Source of the DNA: an uncultured bacterium
GTDB taxonomy: Bacteria; Patescibacteriota; Minisyncoccia; Phycocordibacterales; GWA1-40-21
Direction of reading: 5' to 3'
NCBI GenBank assembly: GCA_903831305.1
Contig: CAIKXE010000002.1
Span: forward strand, 15,934 to 79,933
Length of the DNA stretch: 64,000 nucleotides
Positions within the stretch are counted from its first letter, which is position 1. Each line of letters begins with the position of its first letter. The notes under the pieces were generated by a model. It worked only from the letters and a program-made list of their open reading frames with translations. It was not told the origin of the DNA and searched no databases. Of this stretch, positions 1,732 through 60,521 are shown in pieces. Position numbers and translations under genes: made by a program.

Positions 1732-1922
1732 TGCTGTATCTTAGCAAAGATATGCTATAATTAAAAATGAGGATTTGGATTTCTCGTCGAACCATCTTCC
1801 TTTGGAGGGGCTTTTGAGCCTGACTGAGGCGAAAACGGAGAATTTTTTTAGCAGAAAAAATTCGTACCCGGAAAAGGATGTGGTGAGAAAGAGAAATAAA
1901 ATTATTAATTAATTAAAAACAA

Positions 1923-20602: not shown

Positions 20603-20673
20603 TCTTACTTTTGTGCCGATGGATGGAATTGAACCATCTTTTGAGGCTTATGAGTCCCCCGTTCTACCATTGA
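20603..20673 (-). tRNA. tRNA-Met (CAT) elongator-type (or tRNA-Ile2)
   Basis: Minus strand GCCGATG-TA-GTTC-AATGGTA-GAAC-G-GGGGA-CTCATAA-GCCTC-AAAA-GATGG-TTCAATT-CCATC-CATCGGC-A. Perfect acceptor, D and T arms with canonical GG and TTC loops; one mismatch at the base of the anticodon stem. Confidence 0.75.
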
Positions 20674-20812
20674 ACTACATCGGCGTTATTTAATTTTCCC
20701 TAGAATCTACCAACAACTACATCGGCGTTATTTAATTTTCCCTAGAATCTACCAACAACTACATAGGCATATTACTTTACCCTATGTCCAACACCAATAA
20801 CTACATCAACAT
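20664..20812. repeat. Tandem 42-bp repeat array (3.5 copies) of tRNA-Met 5'-fragment plus promoter-like sequence
   Basis: Period-42 units CTACATCGGCGTTATTTAATTTTCCCTAGAATCTACCAACAA, two identical and two degenerate. On the minus strand each unit reads TTGTTG-18nt-TAAATA-ACGCCGATGTAG, a -35/-10 pair followed by the first 12 nt of the tRNA and a degenerate D arm. Confidence 0.8.
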
Positions 20813-20894: not shown

Positions 20895-20965
20895 AGCGGG
20901 GTAGAGTAACAGTAATTCGCGAGGCTCATAACCTTGAGATGTACGTGCGAATCGTACCCCCGCAA
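20895..20965 (+). tRNA. Initiator-like tRNA-fMet (CAT) with non-canonical D and T loops
   Basis: AGCGGGG-TA-GAGT-AACAGTA-ATTC-G-CGAGG-CTCATAA-CCTTG-AGAT-GTACG-TGCGAAT-CGTAC-CCCCGCA-A. It has a 1-72 mismatch and an A11-T24 pair like bacterial initiators. It lacks G19 in the D loop and TTC in the T loop. Confidence 0.55.
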
Positions 20966-21065
20966 CAATTAATTATTTTTGTGATCTAGTACTTGTTATT
21001 GGTGTATTTTATTGCTCAAATGTAGATTTTGTGTATAATAATGAGGATCTCATTTTTTTGAGATT

Positions 21066-21380
21066 CATCGCCACGCGGGCGTAGCTCAACGGTAGAGCAC
21101 TCCCCTGTAGACGTGCAGCTTTCCGCCGAGATGCGGATTGAAACTCTCTGGGATAACGGTGAAGGCTAAGTTCCATTTTGGAATATGCGAACACCGTGGG
21201 AACTCTTGTGAGATTTGGGGCCATCGGTCCCGAGTGAAACGAGGGAGCGCCGTAGAGACTAGATACCGGAGTACCCTAACTCACTGTGTGTGAAGGGTAA
21301 AGATATAGTCCATGCCACTATGAAAATAGTGAATTAGTGCACGGGAGAGGCCGTGGGGTCAGCACCCATCGCCCGCGCCA
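21066..21380 (+). tRNA. tRNA-Asp (GTC) interrupted by a group I intron; exons 21066-21099 and 21340-21380, CCA encoded
   Basis: 5' exon GCGGGCG-TA-GCTC-AACGGTA-GAGC-A-CTCCC-CTGT; 3' exon CAC-GGGAG-AGGCC-GTGGG-GTCAGCA-CCCAT-CGCCCGC-G-CCA. The spliced anticodon loop would be CTGTCAC, with G10, C38 and G73 as in tRNA-Asp. Confidence 0.75.
21100..21339 (+). ncRNA. Group I self-splicing intron (about 240 nt) in the tRNA-Asp anticodon loop
   Basis: Contains the conserved group I core elements R (GTAGAGACTAGA, 21253-21264) and S (AAAGATATAGTCC, 21297-21309), which pair as P7 (GACTA/TAGTC). The 5' exon ends in U and can pair CUGU with the intron GCAG at 21106-21109 including a U-G wobble (P1). The intron ends in G. 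There is a P9-like hairpin CCACTATGAAAATAGTG. Confidence 0.75.
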
Positions 21381-21383
21381 GTA

Positions 21384-21406
21384 AAAGCCCTGAATAAGGG
21401 CTTTTC
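21384..21406 (+). terminator. Hairpin with flanking A/T tracts directly after tRNA-Asp
   Basis: AAAAGCCCTGAATAAGGGCTTTT. Confidence 0.5.
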
Positions 21407-21409
21407 TGT

Positions 21410-21587
21410 TGCGCGGGCGAAGCAAGCAAATGATTTTGCTTGCGTTGGGTTGCTGACCGGCGGAGCCAGATTTTTTCAGTAGAAAAAATAGGTGAGCCGG
21501 TGTCCAACCCGAGCCGAGCGACGGCGAGGGGAGAGGTGCGGACAAGCACCCACATTGTTTTGTGCGAGGGAGAGTCCATCGCCCGCG
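21410..21587 (+). ncRNA. Structured ncRNA-like element (about 178 nt) closed by a tRNA-Asp acceptor-like stem; identity unknown
   Basis: The 5' end CGCGGGCGAAGC and the 3' end GGGAGAGTCCATCGCCCGCG copy the tRNA-Asp acceptor and anticodon-stem sequences but lack D and T arms. The interior folds into at least four hairpins. It is followed by the terminator at 21591-21625. Confidence 0.45.
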
Positions 21588-21590
21588 GTT

Positions 21591-21625
21591 AAACCACCCC
21601 AGAAGGGGTGGTTTTTGTTTTTTAA
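21591..21625 (+). terminator. Rho-independent terminator
   Basis: AAACCACCCCAGAAGGGGTGGTTTTTGTTTTTT. Confidence 0.85.
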
Positions 21626-21679
21626 TTATTTTGTTTGTGTTATAATATGAAGGGTTATTAGTAATTTATTTATAAAAAT

Positions 21680-22093
21680 ATGGGTACTCAAAAAATTGTC
21701 TGGGATGAAAAATATAGTGTGGGGGTAGAGGAGATTGATAACCAGCACAAGCGGATGTTTGAAGTGATAAATGAATTATTAGAGGCTATAAATACTAATA
21801 CCACTGAGGATCATCTCGGTAATATCATTGACGGGCTTATAAAATATAAGGTATTTCACTTTGCGACTGAAGAAAAATATTTTAAGCAGTTTAATTATGA
21901 AGGAGCAGAAGAACATATACTAAAGCATAAAGAGTTTAATGATAATTTGATGGTTCTAAAGGATAAGTACCCCATCTATAGTGTTGAATTTGCTTTTGAA
22001 TTAGTTGATTTTCTTGAGGATTGGCTTATTGATCACCTCATGATTGTAGATCAAAAATATAAAAAGTGTTTTGCTGAACATGGCTTAAAATAG
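21680..22093 (+). CDS. Bacteriohemerythrin / hemerythrin-like metal-binding protein
   Basis: WDEKYSVGVEEIDNQHKRMF is the classic hemerythrin HHE motif; 137 aa. Confidence 0.8.
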   Translation: MGTQKIVWDEKYSVGVEEIDNQHKRMFEVINELLEAINTNTTEDHLGNIIDGLIKYKVFHFATEEKYFKQFNYEGAEEHILKHKEFNDNLMVLKDKYPIYSVEFAFELVDFLEDWLIDHLMIVDQKYKKCFAEHGLK

Positions 22094-31513: not shown

Positions 31514-31589
31514 GCCAAGATAGCTCAGCTGGTAGAGCACGTCATTGGTAATGACGAGGTCCCGGGTTCAAACCCCGGTCTTGGCTCCA
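31514..31589 (+). tRNA. tRNA-Thr (GGT), CCA encoded
   Basis: GCCAAGA-TA-GCTC-AGCTGGTA-GAGC-A-CGTCA-TTGGTAA-TGACG-AGGTC-CCGGG-TTCAAAC-CCCGG-TCTTGGC-T-CCA; all stems perfect. Confidence 0.9.
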
Positions 31590-31714
31590 ATCACAAACAA
31601 ACTTATTTGTTTGTGCCGGGGTTTGAACGGCGGAACGATGTTTTGATAGCAATTAAAACCGTGAGCCGGTGCCCAGTCTAAAATTTTTGACGCGAAATTT
31701 TAAGGCGAGGGCTA

Positions 31715-31732
31715 GTCCCGGTCTTGGCTCCC
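31715..31732 (+). repeat. Direct repeat of the tRNA-Thr(GGT) 3' end (GTCCCGGTCTTGGCTCCC), 126 bp downstream of the tRNA
   Basis: A 17/18 match to tRNA positions 60-76. A second T-arm-like fragment CCGGGGTTTGAAC lies at 31616-31628. Confidence 0.6.
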
Positions 31733-60378: not shown

Positions 60379-60381
60379 CGA

Positions 60382-60497
60382 ACTGGGAGTAGAATATTGT
60401 GTTTGTGAGCCTCTCGGAAGACGACGGTCTGAGAGTGAGAGATTTTTTCAGCAGAAAAAATACTCGTGCTCAAAAAACATAATATTCTACTCCCAGT
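60382..60497. repeat. 115-nt imperfect palindrome (20-bp arms) enclosing an AT-hairpin motif, between rpmE and prfA
   Basis: Arms ACTGGGAGTAGAATATTGTG / CATAATATTCTACTCCCAGT; inner hairpin GATTTTTTCAGCAGAAAAAAT at 60441-60463. Confidence 0.7.
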
Positions 60498-60521
60498 TTT
60501 GTTTTATGCTACAATAATCAC

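What the first reader, a model, noticed from the sequence alone, without database searches (positions are those of the whole stretch)
21384..21625. tRNA-Asp-derived structured RNA element immediately downstream of the intron-containing tRNA
A roughly 178-nt segment is closed by an 8-bp GC helix whose strands copy the tRNA-Asp acceptor stem: GCGGGCGAAGC at the 5' side, and GGGAGAGTCC-CATCGCCCGCG (a copy of the anticodon-stem 3' strand plus the acceptor strand) at the 3' side. It lacks D and T arms. It contains at least four internal hairpins, including one copy of the recurrent GATTTTTTCAGTAGAAAAAAT motif. It sits between a weak hairpin and a strong intrinsic terminator, so it looks like a discrete transcript or the processed 3' part of the tRNA transcript. 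It could be a tRNA-like ncRNA, such as a Y-RNA-like or tRNA-mimic regulator, or a relic of integrase-mediated duplication.
Basis: seen in the sequence. Interest (0 to 1): 0.6.

Follow-up and report, generated by a model that had tools for sequence, protein, structure and literature searches.

The report
RtT-like tRNA-linked structured RNA repeat
Just behind an intron-containing tRNA-Asp gene lies a ~178-nt, very stably folded non-coding element whose closing stem pairs a sense copy with an antisense copy of that tRNA's own 3' end; I found no description of its family, which occurs behind tRNA genes in many Patescibacteria, has strong covariation support, and is laid out like the poorly understood E. 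coli RtT repeats.

Summary
Window 21411-21588 folds far better than shuffles (z -6.35). It is closed by an 8-bp helix whose strands copy the tRNA-Asp acceptor strands, and it sits between a weak hairpin and a strong terminator.

It is not a one-off relic. Of 96 distinct metagenomic tRNA-Asp loci, 25 carry a homologue at the same place, sometimes in tandem. The same inner two-hairpin module follows tRNA-Thr (also in this window, 31590-31731), tRNA-Met and an intron-containing tRNA(CAU).

Each copy has an exact antisense copy (11-15 nt) and an exact sense copy (12-22 nt) of the 3' end of the tRNA it follows. These two copies form the basal stem.

The structure is well supported: 93.5% of cells are paired against 64.6% in shuffles, 52 of 53 pairs show double changes, and G.U outnumbers A.C 114 to 22 on the tRNA strand.

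No Rfam family matches. The layout equals that of E. coli RtT (RF00391), without homology.

Best reading: a structured RNA in the 3' trailer of tRNA operons, with a tRNA-end-like stalk and a conserved apical module. Its function is unknown. A miniature mobile or integrative element is the main rival.

The window copy is a rearranged, composite member of the family.

The parts
21075..21108 (+). tRNA-Asp(GUC) exon 1 (acceptor 5' strand GCGGGCG, D arm, 5' half of the anticodon arm, ending ..CCUGU)
   Evidence: It is 75% identical to intron-containing tRNA-Asp genes in L008 and L013. ARAGORN calls the intron-less orthologues tRNA-Asp(gtc).
21109..21339 (+). Group I intron in the anticodon loop of tRNA-Asp
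   Evidence: Rfam Intron_gpI scores 46.5 bits (gathering score 50), E 1.3e-10, over 21084-21332. The splice sites are inferred from U|A...G|CAC, which restores the loop CUGUCAC.
21340..21380 (+). tRNA-Asp exon 2 (anticodon-stem 3' strand GGGAG, variable loop, T arm GUGGG-GUCAGCA-CCCAU, acceptor 3' strand CGCCCGC, G73, encoded CCA)
   Evidence: This segment is the template for the sense and antisense copies in the element.
21383..21410 (+). Hairpin T1 (AAAGCCC-UGAAUA-GGGCUUU plus UCUGUU), weakly terminator-like. With the tRNA 3' end and the P1 5' strand it forms a ~55-nt imperfect palindrome.
   Evidence: It does not pass the terminator rule. The palindrome was seen as an 83.6% inverted self-match. 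It is homologous to T1 of L143.
21411..21419 (+). P1 5' strand (GCGCGGGCG), a copy of the tRNA-Asp 5' acceptor strand that pairs with 21580-21587
   Evidence: In alignment A2, helices 1-2 are 86-90% paired and all 8 pairs show double changes.
21422..21443 (+). Hairpin A (GCAAGCAAA-UGAU-UUUGCUUGC)
   Evidence: Present in the MFE fold. In the family, helix 3 is 97% paired and 7 of 7 pairs are compensatory.
21444..21455 (+). P2 5' strand, the 'anti-T' segment (GUUGGGUUGCUG). In relatives it reads AUGGGUGCUGAC, the exact reverse complement of the tRNA-Asp T-loop plus T-stem 3' strand.
   Evidence: antisense match of 11-15 nt to the cognate tRNA, against 8 nt or less for non-cognate tRNAs. In the window's MFE fold it pairs instead with CCAACCC 21504-21510.
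21457..21500 (+). P3 (CCGGC/GCCGG), GGA/GA internal loop and hairpin B (AUUUUUUC-AGUA-GAAAAAAU). This is the recurrent AU-rich motif.
   Evidence: Helices 7-9 are 96-99% paired and all pairs are compensatory.
21501..21533 (+). P4 5' strand (UGUCCAACC) and hairpin C, with the near-invariant GACG loop at 21520-21523 (GAGC-GACG-GCGA)
   Evidence: Helices 10-12 are 85-94% paired.
21535..21553 (+). T-arm-like hairpin GGUGCGGACAAGCACC followed by CAC. It is a diverged sense copy of the tRNA-Asp T arm and serves as the P2 3' strand of unit 1.
   Evidence: Alignment with L187, which ends ..GCACCCAUCACCCG. The R1 alignment of window 21413-21564 supports the assignment.
21551..21579 (+). Remnant of a second unit: a small hairpin CACAUUGUUUUGUG, then CGAGGGAGAGUCCAU (P4 3' strand plus T-stem 3' strand, as in L143 and L153)
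   Evidence: (alignment A3).
21580..21588 (+). P1 3' strand CGCCCGCG plus G, a sense copy of the tRNA-Asp acceptor 3' strand and discriminator G73. No CCA is encoded.
21591..21623 (+). Strong intrinsic terminator T2 (AAACCACCCC-AGAA-GGGGUGGUUU plus a U-run)
   Evidence: It is homologous to the terminator that directly follows tRNA-Asp in L183 and L187.
31590..31731 (+). Paralogous element behind tRNA-Thr(GGU) (31514-31589): hairpin A 31593-31614; anti-T 31615-31628; P3/B 31629-31667; P4/C 31668-31715; copy of the tRNA-Thr 3' end 31716-31731
   Evidence: nhmmer gives E 1.7e-18 and R1 gives 42.1 bits, E 2.3e-7. The anti-T segment is the exact 13-nt reverse complement of the Thr T-loop plus T-stem 3' strand.

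Best explanation
The element belongs to a family of structured, non-coding RNA elements, undescribed as far as I could find, that sit in the 3' trailers of tRNA genes in Patescibacteria (Paceibacteria/Parcubacteria-like genomes).

Each unit has four components:
- Hairpin A.
- An antisense copy of the neighbouring tRNA's T-loop and T-stem 3' strand. In the Asp-linked copies there is also a copy of the acceptor 5' strand.
- A constant apical module of two hairpins. Hairpin B has a GGA/GA internal loop and an AGCA/AGUA loop. Hairpin C has a GACG loop.
- A sense copy of the last 12-22 nt of that tRNA.

The sense and antisense copies pair to form a basal stalk (P1 plus P2). This stalk reproduces the acceptor/T-stem stack of the cognate tRNA.

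Inferred mechanism:
1. The unit is transcribed from the tRNA promoter, by read-through where hairpin T1 is present.
2. Its tRNA-like stalk and 3' end let the tRNA end-processing machinery (RNase P, RNase Z or exonucleases, possibly CCA addition) define a discrete ~150-180-nt RNA.
3. The invariant loops of the apical module are the working part, most likely a protein-binding platform.
4. Units multiply, are lost, and stay identical to their tRNA through recombination between the repeated tRNA 3' ends. This gives tandem arrays and composite copies such as the one in the window.

Shown here: family membership, structure, strand, linkage to tRNAs, the sense/antisense templating, and the RtT-like layout. 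Inferred: co-transcription, processing, and function of the module.
For: Stability and recurrence:
- z -6.35 for the window element.
- Identical sequence in six independent assemblies of the same species.
- 25 of 96 distinct tRNA-Asp loci carry a homologue beginning roughly 25-35 nt after the tRNA's 3' end; at least three are tandem.
- 44 model R1 hits in about 1 Mb of loci searched.

Structure:
- 93.5% of cells are paired against 64.6% in shuffles. 52 of 53 pairs show double changes. The covariation score is 0.631 against 0.188 (0 of 500 shuffles reach it) and 0.03-0.09 for slid partners.
- RNAalifold on an independent MAFFT alignment recovers A, P2, P3, B, P4 and C, with 28 of 42 pairs compensatory.
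- An unconstrained MFE fold of L090 gives nearly the same structure.

Strand: G.U plus U.G number 114 against 22 for A.C plus C.A.

Templating on the cognate tRNA:
- Sense matches of 12-22 nt and antisense matches of 11-15 nt, against 8 nt or less for non-cognate tRNAs.
- Seen for Asp, Thr-GGU, Thr-CGU, Met and an intron-containing tRNA(CAU).
- The acceptor variants AGCCGC, GCCCGC and AGUCGC co-vary between tRNA and element.

Transcription context:
- No promoter-like site between the tRNA and the element, and a strong terminator after it.
- Thr- and Met-linked copies start 4-20 nt after the tRNA with no intervening hairpin.

Precedent:
- E. coli RtT units end in the tRNA-Tyr 3' end. The closing helix of RF00391 pairs that copy with its complement.
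- rttR is an RNA made from one repeat unit of the tyrT operon (PMC3318445, citing Bosl & Kersten 1991).
- Plant t-elements show that tRNA-like stems are cleaved by RNase P and RNase Z and receive CCA tails (PMC1920247, PMC11658184).
Against: - No transcript data are available.
- In Asp-linked copies a terminator-like hairpin with a U-run (T1) lies between the tRNA and the element, with no promoter after it. That is odd for an expressed gene.
- P1 often extends 2 bp past position +1 and P2 can be 10-12 bp. The stalk is therefore not a faithful 12-bp acceptor/T minihelix, and no T-loop elbow is present.
- Thr- and Met-linked copies lack the P1 5' strand.
- Only 26% of tRNA-Asp loci are occupied. 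Flanks show an insertion or deletion polymorphism bounded by the tRNA 3'-end repeat.
- Solo copies exist away from any detectable tRNA (L157, L014, L165).
- Compensatory change in hairpins is, from general knowledge, also seen in non-coding mobile elements (REPINs).
- No partner protein was identified.
Confidence: 0.5

Rival explanations
1. It is a miniature non-autonomous mobile or integrative element. A ~150-200-bp non-coding unit inserts site-specifically into the T-loop-to-3'-end segment of tRNA genes. The sense copy is the attR or target duplication. The folded single strand (P1 plus P2) reconstitutes a duplex that mimics the target, in the manner of integron attC or CTX-phage attP. The conserved hairpins would be recognised by a recombinase encoded elsewhere.
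For: - Direct repeats of the tRNA 3' end flank the inserted DNA. The ancestral terminator and promoter lie distal to the element (L206 against L145 and L164; window against L183 and L187).
- Occupancy is patchy at 26%.
- Tandem arrays, composite units and solo copies occur.
- The same module is fitted to at least five different tRNAs with exactly matching flanks.
- An identical hairpin B occurs in two differently placed copies of one contig, L129.
Against: - No integrase, transposase or reverse transcriptase lies next to the window copy. The neighbours are GatA, hemerythrin and T2SS genes.
- Copies are few and diverged within a genome. The Asp and Thr copies of the window differ in most stem positions, so there is no sign of a recent burst.
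- Positions are orthologous across distant genomes (GatA 55-64% identical).
- The polymorphism is explained equally well by deletion between the direct repeats.
- Pairs show strong G.U bias on the transcribed strand.
Confidence: 0.2
2. It is a cis-acting device that controls maturation or termination of the upstream tRNA. The antisense segments (anti-acceptor and anti-T) compete with the tRNA's own 5' strand and T-stem for the tRNA 3' half in read-through transcripts. Alternatively they extend the T1 terminator into a ~25-30-bp duplex, a possible RNase III site. The downstream sense copy would act as an internal decoy that resets the switch.
For: - The antisense match to the cognate tRNA's T-loop and T-stem 3' strand is exact over 11-15 nt.
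- A ~55-nt palindrome is formed by the tRNA 3' end, T1 and the P1 5' strand.
- A recent preprint describes RtT as involved in processing of the adjacent tyrT transcript (10.1101/2024.07.17.603846).
Against: - A tRNA that has already folded is unlikely to be invaded.
- The element's own sense copy sequesters the antisense segments.
- This reading leaves the conserved apical module unexplained.
- Solo copies occur with no tRNA nearby.
Confidence: 0.15
3. It is a neutral relic: a decaying partial duplicate of tRNA-Asp, or a recombination scar, with no function.
For: - The window copy is visibly rearranged, with a T-arm remnant and a fragment of a second unit.
- P1 is degenerate in some members (L121, L128, L013).
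Against: - All seven helices show covariation across 34 distinct sequences.
- The loops are nearly invariant: GACG, AGYA and GGA/GA.
- The same module occurs behind other tRNAs.
- z is -6.35.
Confidence: 0.05
4. It is a true tRNA mimic that acts in trans: Y-RNA/YrlA-like (Ro-bound), tmRNA-like, or a minihelix that is aminoacylated.
For: - The acceptor stem and discriminator G73 of tRNA-Asp are preserved.
- There is a weak alpha_tmRNA hit of 17.7 bits across the tRNA T arm, T1 and the P1 5' strand.
Against: - There is no T-loop/D-loop elbow, no anticodon arm and no CCA.
- There is no G3.U70 and no tag reading frame. ARAGORN finds no tmRNA.
- No Y_RNA or YrlA hit appears even at E up to 10.
- The 17.7-bit hit is far below the gathering score of 50 and is explained by the real tRNA T arm.
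- Met- and Thr-linked copies lack P1 altogether.
Confidence: 0.05

Closest known systems
E. coli RtT RNA / rttR repeats of the tyrT-tyrV operon (Rfam RF00391)
   Same: - It lies directly downstream of a tRNA gene on the same strand.
- It forms tandem units of ~178 nt.
- Each unit ends with a ~19-nt copy of the tRNA's 3' end, running from the last T-loop bases through the acceptor strand.
- The closing helix of the consensus structure pairs that copy with an upstream complementary segment, GGGGAAGGAU/AUCCUUCCCC.
- Its function is still unclear.
   Different: - There is no sequence or covariance-model homology. RF00391 gives no hit in the window even at E up to 10 or in five related loci at E up to 0.05.
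- The inner structure is different.
- RtT is enterobacterial and tied to tRNA-Tyr. It encodes CCA and overlaps the small tpr ORF.
- The Patescibacteria family uses one constant module behind several different tRNAs.
- The Asp-linked copies add a copy of the acceptor 5' strand and hairpin A.
Plant mitochondrial t-elements (tRNA-like processing signals)
   Same: They are tRNA-derived stems embedded in longer transcripts. RNase P, RNase Z and the CCA-adding enzyme recognise them without any decoding role (PMC1920247, PMC11658184). This is the model for how the P1/P2 stalk could define the RNA's ends.
   Different: t-elements keep a whole cloverleaf and flank mRNAs. Here only the acceptor strands and T-stem are kept, the T-loop is replaced by an ~85-nt module, and the host transcript is a tRNA operon. 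Processing was not tested.
Partial tRNA duplications at the ends of elements integrated into tRNA genes (attL/attR; CIME-like non-autonomous derivatives)
   Same: - A direct repeat of the tRNA 3' part, starting in the T-loop or T-stem, bounds the inserted DNA.
- The ancestral flank lies distal to the insert.
- Tandem accretion occurs.
   Different: - The insert is only ~130-180 bp and non-coding.
- It is conserved as a covarying fold with G.U bias.
- It carries an inverted copy of the target as well.
- No integrase is nearby.
sRNAs derived from the 3' external transcribed spacer of tRNA operons (e.g. 3'ETS-leuZ)
   Same: They are a functional RNA released from the trailer of a tRNA transcript (general knowledge; mentioned in PMC6191717).
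   Different: 3'ETS-leuZ is short, depends on Hfq, and acts by base-pairing as a sponge. It carries no copies of the tRNA's end.
REPIN / BIME-type structured intergenic repeats
   Same: They are non-coding hairpin repeats that keep their pairing through compensatory change. They are modular and are transcribed at gene 3' ends (general knowledge).
   Different: REPINs occur in tens to hundreds of near-identical copies and are not tied to tRNA ends. Here there are a few diverged copies per genome, each fitted to its own tRNA.

Membership tests
RtT RNA (RF00391) | Located immediately downstream of a tRNA gene on the same strand, often in tandem units | tested here: met
   Window. 25 of 96 tRNA-Asp loci are occupied and tandem units occur in L129, L159 and L186. 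The E. coli reference region is.
RtT RNA (RF00391) | The unit ends with a copy of the tRNA's 3'-terminal segment, and the closing helix pairs this copy with a complementary 5' segment | tested here: met
   One search gives sense matches of 12-22 nt and antisense matches of 11-15 nt. One search shows the same arrangement in the RF00391 consensus.
RtT RNA (RF00391) | Match to the family covariance model (gathering score 45 bits) | tested here: not met
   There is no RtT hit in the window at gathering score, at E up to 10 over 20950-21700, or at E up to 0.05 in five related loci. The E. coli units score 133-137 bits.
tRNA (RF00005) | Cloverleaf with D arm, anticodon arm and T arm with a T-loop | tested here: not met
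   ARAGORN and Rfam call six tRNAs in the window but nothing at 21411-21588. Only the acceptor strands and a diverged T-arm remnant are present.
tmRNA | tRNA-Ala-like domain (G3.U70, T arm, CCA) plus a tag reading frame and pseudoknots | tested here: not met
   ARAGORN finds no tmRNA. alpha_tmRNA scores 17.7 bits against a gathering score of 50 and covers the real tRNA T arm. The acceptor helix is GCGGGCG/CGCCCGC, with no G.U at position 3:70.
Y RNA / YrlA | Ro-binding basal stem plus a tRNA-like T-arm/D-arm module, encoded near rsr | tested here: not met
   No Rfam hit at E up to 10. The neighbouring genes are GatA, a 212-aa ORF, hemerythrin and T2SS genes. Presence of rsr elsewhere in the genome was not tested.
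Integrative element in a tRNA gene (attL/attR) | A direct repeat of the tRNA 3' segment bounds the inserted DNA, and empty and occupied sites exist | tested here: met
   L206 against L145 and L164; window against L183 and L187; 26% occupancy. Deletion between the repeats gives the same pattern.
Integrative element in a tRNA gene (attL/attR) | A recombinase (tyrosine or serine integrase) encoded within or next to the element | tested here: not met
   The element has no coding capacity. Pfam assignments for the called neighbours show no integrase. A recombinase acting in trans cannot be excluded.
Plant-type t-element (tRNA-like processing signal) | Cleavage by RNase P and RNase Z, and CCA tailing at the tRNA-like stem | not testable with these tools
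   Only the structural prerequisite is shown: a 7-9-bp acceptor-like helix stacked directly on a T-stem-like helix, followed by discriminator G73.
Intrinsic terminator (T2) | GC-rich hairpin followed by a U-run | tested here: met
   21591-21614, 10 pairs, 6 of them G-C, tail TTGTTTTTTA. T1 (21383-21410) does not pass the rule.

The most novel reading that the evidence does not exclude
The family is a new kind of non-coding, self-templating mobile element. Its two antisense segments (anti-acceptor and anti-T, split by hairpin A) would act as a bipartite guide that base-pairs with the 3' end of a tRNA gene or transcript and directs insertion there. Insertion would duplicate the target as the sense copy. 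The constant two-hairpin module would recruit a host or trans-encoded enzyme. On this view E. coli RtT would be an independent or decayed example of the same principle.
Probability: 0.12. Interest if true: 0.9.

Novelty: new variant of a known kind. Interest (0 to 1): 0.66.

Why it matters
- RtT has been known since the 1980s-90s (my recollection of the literature), and in E. coli and its relatives it is tied to tRNA-Tyr. Its role is still unsettled. I searched only Rfam and a few text queries, but I am not aware of another reported example of its design.
- A second, unrelated and much more widespread family with the same design suggests a general principle of tRNA-operon biology or of tRNA-targeted genome dynamics. 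The shared design is a structured RNA behind a tRNA gene whose basal stem pairs a sense copy with an antisense copy of that tRNA's 3' end.
- The principle now becomes testable with comparative data, because many tRNAs, many genomes and clear covariation are available.
- The family adds a sizeable structured RNA class to Patescibacteria. These organisms have reduced genomes in which retained non-coding structure is likely to matter.
- It flags short conserved loops (GACG, AGYA, GGA/GA) as candidate protein-binding sites.
- It warns annotators that partial tRNA copies behind tRNA genes in these genomes are not simply integrase scars.

Tried and rejected
Database and collection searches:
- Rfam at gathering score and at E up to 10 gave no family for the element. 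The only hits were noise and a sub-threshold group I intron in the tRNA.
- ARAGORN found no tRNA or tmRNA at the element.
- Four viral-contig scans were run with short module patterns. Three gave 120 chance hits each, mostly in GC-rich contigs, and none matched the family HMMs. One specific hairpin-B pattern gave 0 hits. They say nothing either way about phage carriage.
- Literature searches for a described Patescibacteria tRNA-linked RNA found nothing.

Ideas considered and dropped:
- Hairpin C loop GACG as a T-box-like specifier for the Asp anticodon. The same loop occurs in Thr- and Met-linked copies.
- A kissing interaction between the hairpin A loop (CUGCU) and the hairpin B loop (AGCA). 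The loops do not co-vary; A loops of UGGGA or UGAU occur with the same B loops.
- A canonical k-turn at GGA/GA. There is only a 1-nt bulge.
- Hammerhead or box C/D readings of the invariant CUGA. It is absent from non-Asp copies.
- A retroviral-type primer-binding site. The complementarity is to the genomic 3' end, not to the CCA end.

Other copies of the motif:
- The two other copies of the AU hairpin in the window (1841 and 60441) are not further elements. They match only model positions 55-80.

Fold of the window copy:
- The window's MFE pairing UUGGGUUG/CCAACCC is not the family's P2. It may be an alternative fold specific to this subgroup and could not be resolved with five sequences.
Full report
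**1. The observation.**
- The window holds a tRNA-Asp(GUC) gene split by a 231-nt group I intron. Exon 1 is 21075-21108, the intron 21109-21339 and exon 2 21340-21380. Rfam Intron_gpI scores 46.5 bits, just under the gathering score of 50, with E 1.3e-10.
- Next comes a weak hairpin T1 (21383-21410), then the element (21411-21588), then a strong intrinsic terminator T2 (21591-21623). The consensus scan calls T2 but not T1.
CGCGGGCG (21412-21419) pairs with CGCCCGCG (21580-21587). GCGGGCG equals the tRNA's 5' acceptor strand. CCATCGCCCGCG is a 12-nt exact copy of the tRNA's 3' end.
- The 183-nt stretch folds at -87.8 kcal/mol against -60.5 +/- 4.3 for shuffles (z -6.35). It contains hairpins A, B (the AU-rich motif), C and two smaller ones.
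- The AU-rich motif occurs three times in the window, against none expected.

**2. Organism and close relatives.**
- GatA, 1.5 kb upstream, is at best 64% identical to proteins of Patescibacteria MAGs labelled Paceibacterota, Nomurabacteria or 'Saccharibacteria'.
- Six other assemblies of the same species carry the element unchanged.
- Two more distant genomes have the intron-containing tRNA-Asp. L008 has nothing behind it. L013 has a shorter homologue in the same position, with a compensatory change in an inner helix (ACCGGC/GCCGGU against ACCGAUUG/CAAUCGGU).

**3. A family.**
- A metagenome scan for the unusual tRNA-Asp T arm (GTGGGGTCAGCACCCATC) returned 120 loci.
- Among 96 distinct tRNA-Asp loci with at least 250 nt of downstream sequence, 25 (26%) carry a homologous element beginning roughly 25-35 nt after the tRNA's 3' end. 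Three of them have clear tandem units.
- Many of these tRNA-Asp genes have no intron. The element is therefore linked to the tRNA, not to the intron.
- nhmmer profiles and a covariance model (R1, built from L090 and L114 with a hand-drawn structure that the unconstrained MFE reproduces) find 44 copies in about 1 Mb of loci searched.
- The window scores 71.6 bits (E 1.4e-14) at 21413-21564. It has a second hit at 31587-31728 (42.1 bits), directly behind tRNA-Thr(GGU).

**4. Architecture.** From 5' to 3':
- P1 5' strand. It copies the tRNA's 5' acceptor strand and often has U2.G71. It is present in the Asp-linked and some other copies.
- Hairpin A. It has 8-9 bp and its loop is often CUGC.
- P2 5' strand. 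It is the exact reverse complement of the tRNA's T-loop plus T-stem 3' strand (for example AUGGGUGCUGAC for Asp and CCGGGGUUUGAAC for the window's Thr).
- P3. It has 3-5 bp, a GGA/GA internal loop, and hairpin B with an AGCA or AGUA loop.
- P4. It carries hairpin C with a nearly invariant GACG loop.
- P2 and P1 3' strands. Together they are a sense copy of the last 12-22 nt of the tRNA, through the discriminator.
- A terminator follows.

Further points on the architecture:
- The inner module is constant, whereas the flanks always match the neighbouring tRNA. Sense matches are 12-22 nt and antisense matches 11-15 nt, against at most 8 nt for non-cognate tRNAs.
- The hosts seen are Asp, Thr-GGU, Thr-CGU, elongator Met and an intron-containing tRNA(CAU).
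- Acceptor variants of tRNA-Asp (AGCCGC, GCCCGC, AGUCGC) are mirrored in the adjacent element.
- A shorter 'type 2' inner domain also exists (L013, L110, L184 and others).

**5. Support for the structure.**
- On the 34 distinct sequences of alignment A2, 93.5% of cells form standard pairs, against 64.6% in shuffles. 52 of 53 pairs show changes on both sides.
- The covariation score is 0.631 against 0.188 (0 of 500 shuffles reach it). With the partner slid by 1-3 columns it is 0.03-0.09.
- That alignment was fitted to the model, so I checked independently. RNAalifold on a plain MAFFT alignment of 12 copies recovers A, P2, P3, B, P4 and C, with 28 of 42 pairs compensatory.
- G.U plus U.G pairs outnumber A.C plus C.A by 114 to 22. 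The folded strand is therefore the tRNA strand.

**6. The window copy is composite.**
- The alignment with its nearest relatives (L187, L183, L143, L153) shows the following order: hairpin C, a diverged T-arm copy (GGUGCGGACAAGCACC, 21535-21550; L187 ends there with ..CCCAUCACCCG), a 29-nt remnant of a second unit (CACAUUGUUUUGUG plus CGAGGGAGAGUCCAU), and the P1 3' strand.
- The statement 'lacks a T arm' is therefore only partly right.
- The 'GGGAGAG' piece is also the family's P4 3' strand and is found behind other tRNAs (GUCGAGGGAGAAAUUCC and similar).
- The MFE pairing UUGGGUUG/CCAACCC is not the family's P2 and may be a subgroup alternative.

**7. Dynamics.**
- In L206 the flank after the element (terminator, promoter and gene start) is homologous to the flank that directly follows tRNA-Asp in element-free loci L145 and L164. 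The window's T2 is the terminator that follows the tRNA in L183 and L187.
- The unit (T1, body and duplicated tRNA 3' end) is thus an insertion relative to empty sites. Equally, empty sites may be deletions between the direct repeats.
- Tandem arrays, composite units, solo copies without a nearby tRNA (L157, L014, L165) and an identical hairpin B in two differently placed copies of L129 show ongoing recombination.
- No integrase, transposase or reverse transcriptase neighbours the window copy.
- Viral-contig scans gave only chance matches or nothing.

**8. Comparison with known families.**
- No Rfam 15 family matches the element or five relatives.
- ARAGORN finds no tRNA or tmRNA there.
- Text searches found no description.
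- The closest precedent is E. coli RtT. In K-12, tyrV is followed by ~178-nt units (RF00391, 133-137 bits). Each ends in AAUCCUUCCCCCACCACCA, the tRNA-Tyr 3' end. The family's consensus closing helix pairs AUCCUUCCCC with an upstream GGGGAAGGAU. This is the same sense-plus-antisense design.
- rttR is an RNA made from one such unit (PMC3318445, citing Bosl & Kersten 1991). Its role is still described as unknown (10.1101/2024.07.17.603846).
- The Patescibacteria family is not homologous to RtT. It has no model match, a different interior and many host tRNAs. It works or is organised like RtT but is not a member.
- Plant mitochondrial t-elements show that tRNA-like stems inside longer transcripts are cut by RNase P and RNase Z and receive CCA tails without being charged (PMC1920247, PMC11658184).

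**9. Interpretation.**
- Best reading (0.5): a conserved structured RNA of tRNA-operon trailers.
  - It is transcribed from the tRNA promoter. No promoter-like site lies between the tRNA and the element, and Thr- and Met-linked copies begin 4-20 nt after the tRNA.
  - Its stalk imitates the acceptor/T-stem stack of the neighbouring tRNA and probably recruits tRNA end-processing enzymes.
  - The constant two-hairpin module is the active part.
  - Recombination at the repeated tRNA ends explains copy-number change and concerted evolution.
- Main rival (0.2): a miniature mobile or integrative element whose fold serves its own propagation.
- Lesser rivals: a cis device acting on tRNA maturation or termination (0.15), a neutral relic (0.05), and a true trans-acting tRNA mimic (0.05).
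- Weak points of the best reading:
  - T1 lies ahead of the Asp-linked copies.
  - The stalk's geometry is not tRNA-like.
  - Occupancy is patchy.
  - There are no expression data.

**10. Verdict.**
- The finding is real and more interesting than a local oddity. It is a member, somewhat rearranged, of a widespread family of tRNA-linked structured elements that I found described nowhere. The family parallels E. coli RtT.
- Novelty: a new variant of a known but poorly understood kind.
- Function remains to be shown.

Noticed in passing
window 31590-31731: A second, diverged copy of the same element lies directly behind tRNA-Thr(GGU) (31514-31589). It has hairpin A, a 13-nt exact antisense copy of the Thr T-loop and T-stem 3' strand, the B and C module, and a 15-16-nt sense copy of the tRNA-Thr 3' end. 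It has no P1 5' strand and no intervening terminator.
   Followed up: yes
window 21075-21380: tRNA-Asp(GUC) is interrupted in the anticodon loop by a 231-nt group I intron that scores just below the Rfam gathering score (46.5 against 50 bits). Intron-containing and intron-less alleles coexist among relatives. The T-loop reads GUCAGCA instead of the usual UUCRANY. L197 8560-8810 holds another intron-containing tRNA(CAU).
   Followed up: partly
window 60380-60500: A ~120-nt hairpin (z -9.8) lies between an rpmE-like ORF end and a prfA-like ORF. It has a 28-bp near-perfect outer stem whose 5' arm looks like an extended -10 promoter. It encloses a GACG-loop hairpin and a copy of the AU-rich hairpin B (GAUUUUUUCAGCAGAAAAAAU, 60441-60461). 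It matches only positions 59-79 of the family model.
   Followed up: partly
window 1765-1900: The structured 5' leader of an MgtC-like ORF (start ~1924) contains a third hairpin-B-like motif (AAUUUUUUUAGCAGAAAAAAU, 1841-1861), preceded by GGA and next to a GACUG-loop hairpin. Rfam gives no hit. It might be a regulatory leader that reuses the same hairpin.
   Followed up: partly
window 21369-21420: A ~55-nt imperfect palindrome (83.6%) is formed by the tRNA-Asp acceptor 3' strand, hairpin T1 and the element's P1 5' strand. In read-through RNA the tRNA 3' strand therefore has an alternative partner. The same feature is present in most Asp-linked copies.
   Followed up: partly
L087-L206, downstream of the tRNA-Asp terminators (e.g. 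L206, L145, L164, L149): A promoter-like consensus recurs (GACTGATTGGAC ... GAACTG(T)GNTATAAT, with an extended -10). It appears to be typical of these Patescibacteria and helps to recognise ancestral flanks.
   Followed up: no
L139 4563-4778: There is a weak CsrC-like Rfam match (33.4 bits against a gathering score of 61, E 1.6e-6) upstream of the tRNA cluster. It may be a GGA-rich repeat RNA and is unrelated to the element.
   Followed up: no
window 20613-20684 (-) and 20895-20966 (+): Two divergently oriented tRNA-Met(CAU) genes lie just upstream of tRNA-Asp. The Met/Met/Asp(/Thr) cluster is conserved in many of the metagenomic loci (L157, L129, L139, L111, L128).
   Followed up: no
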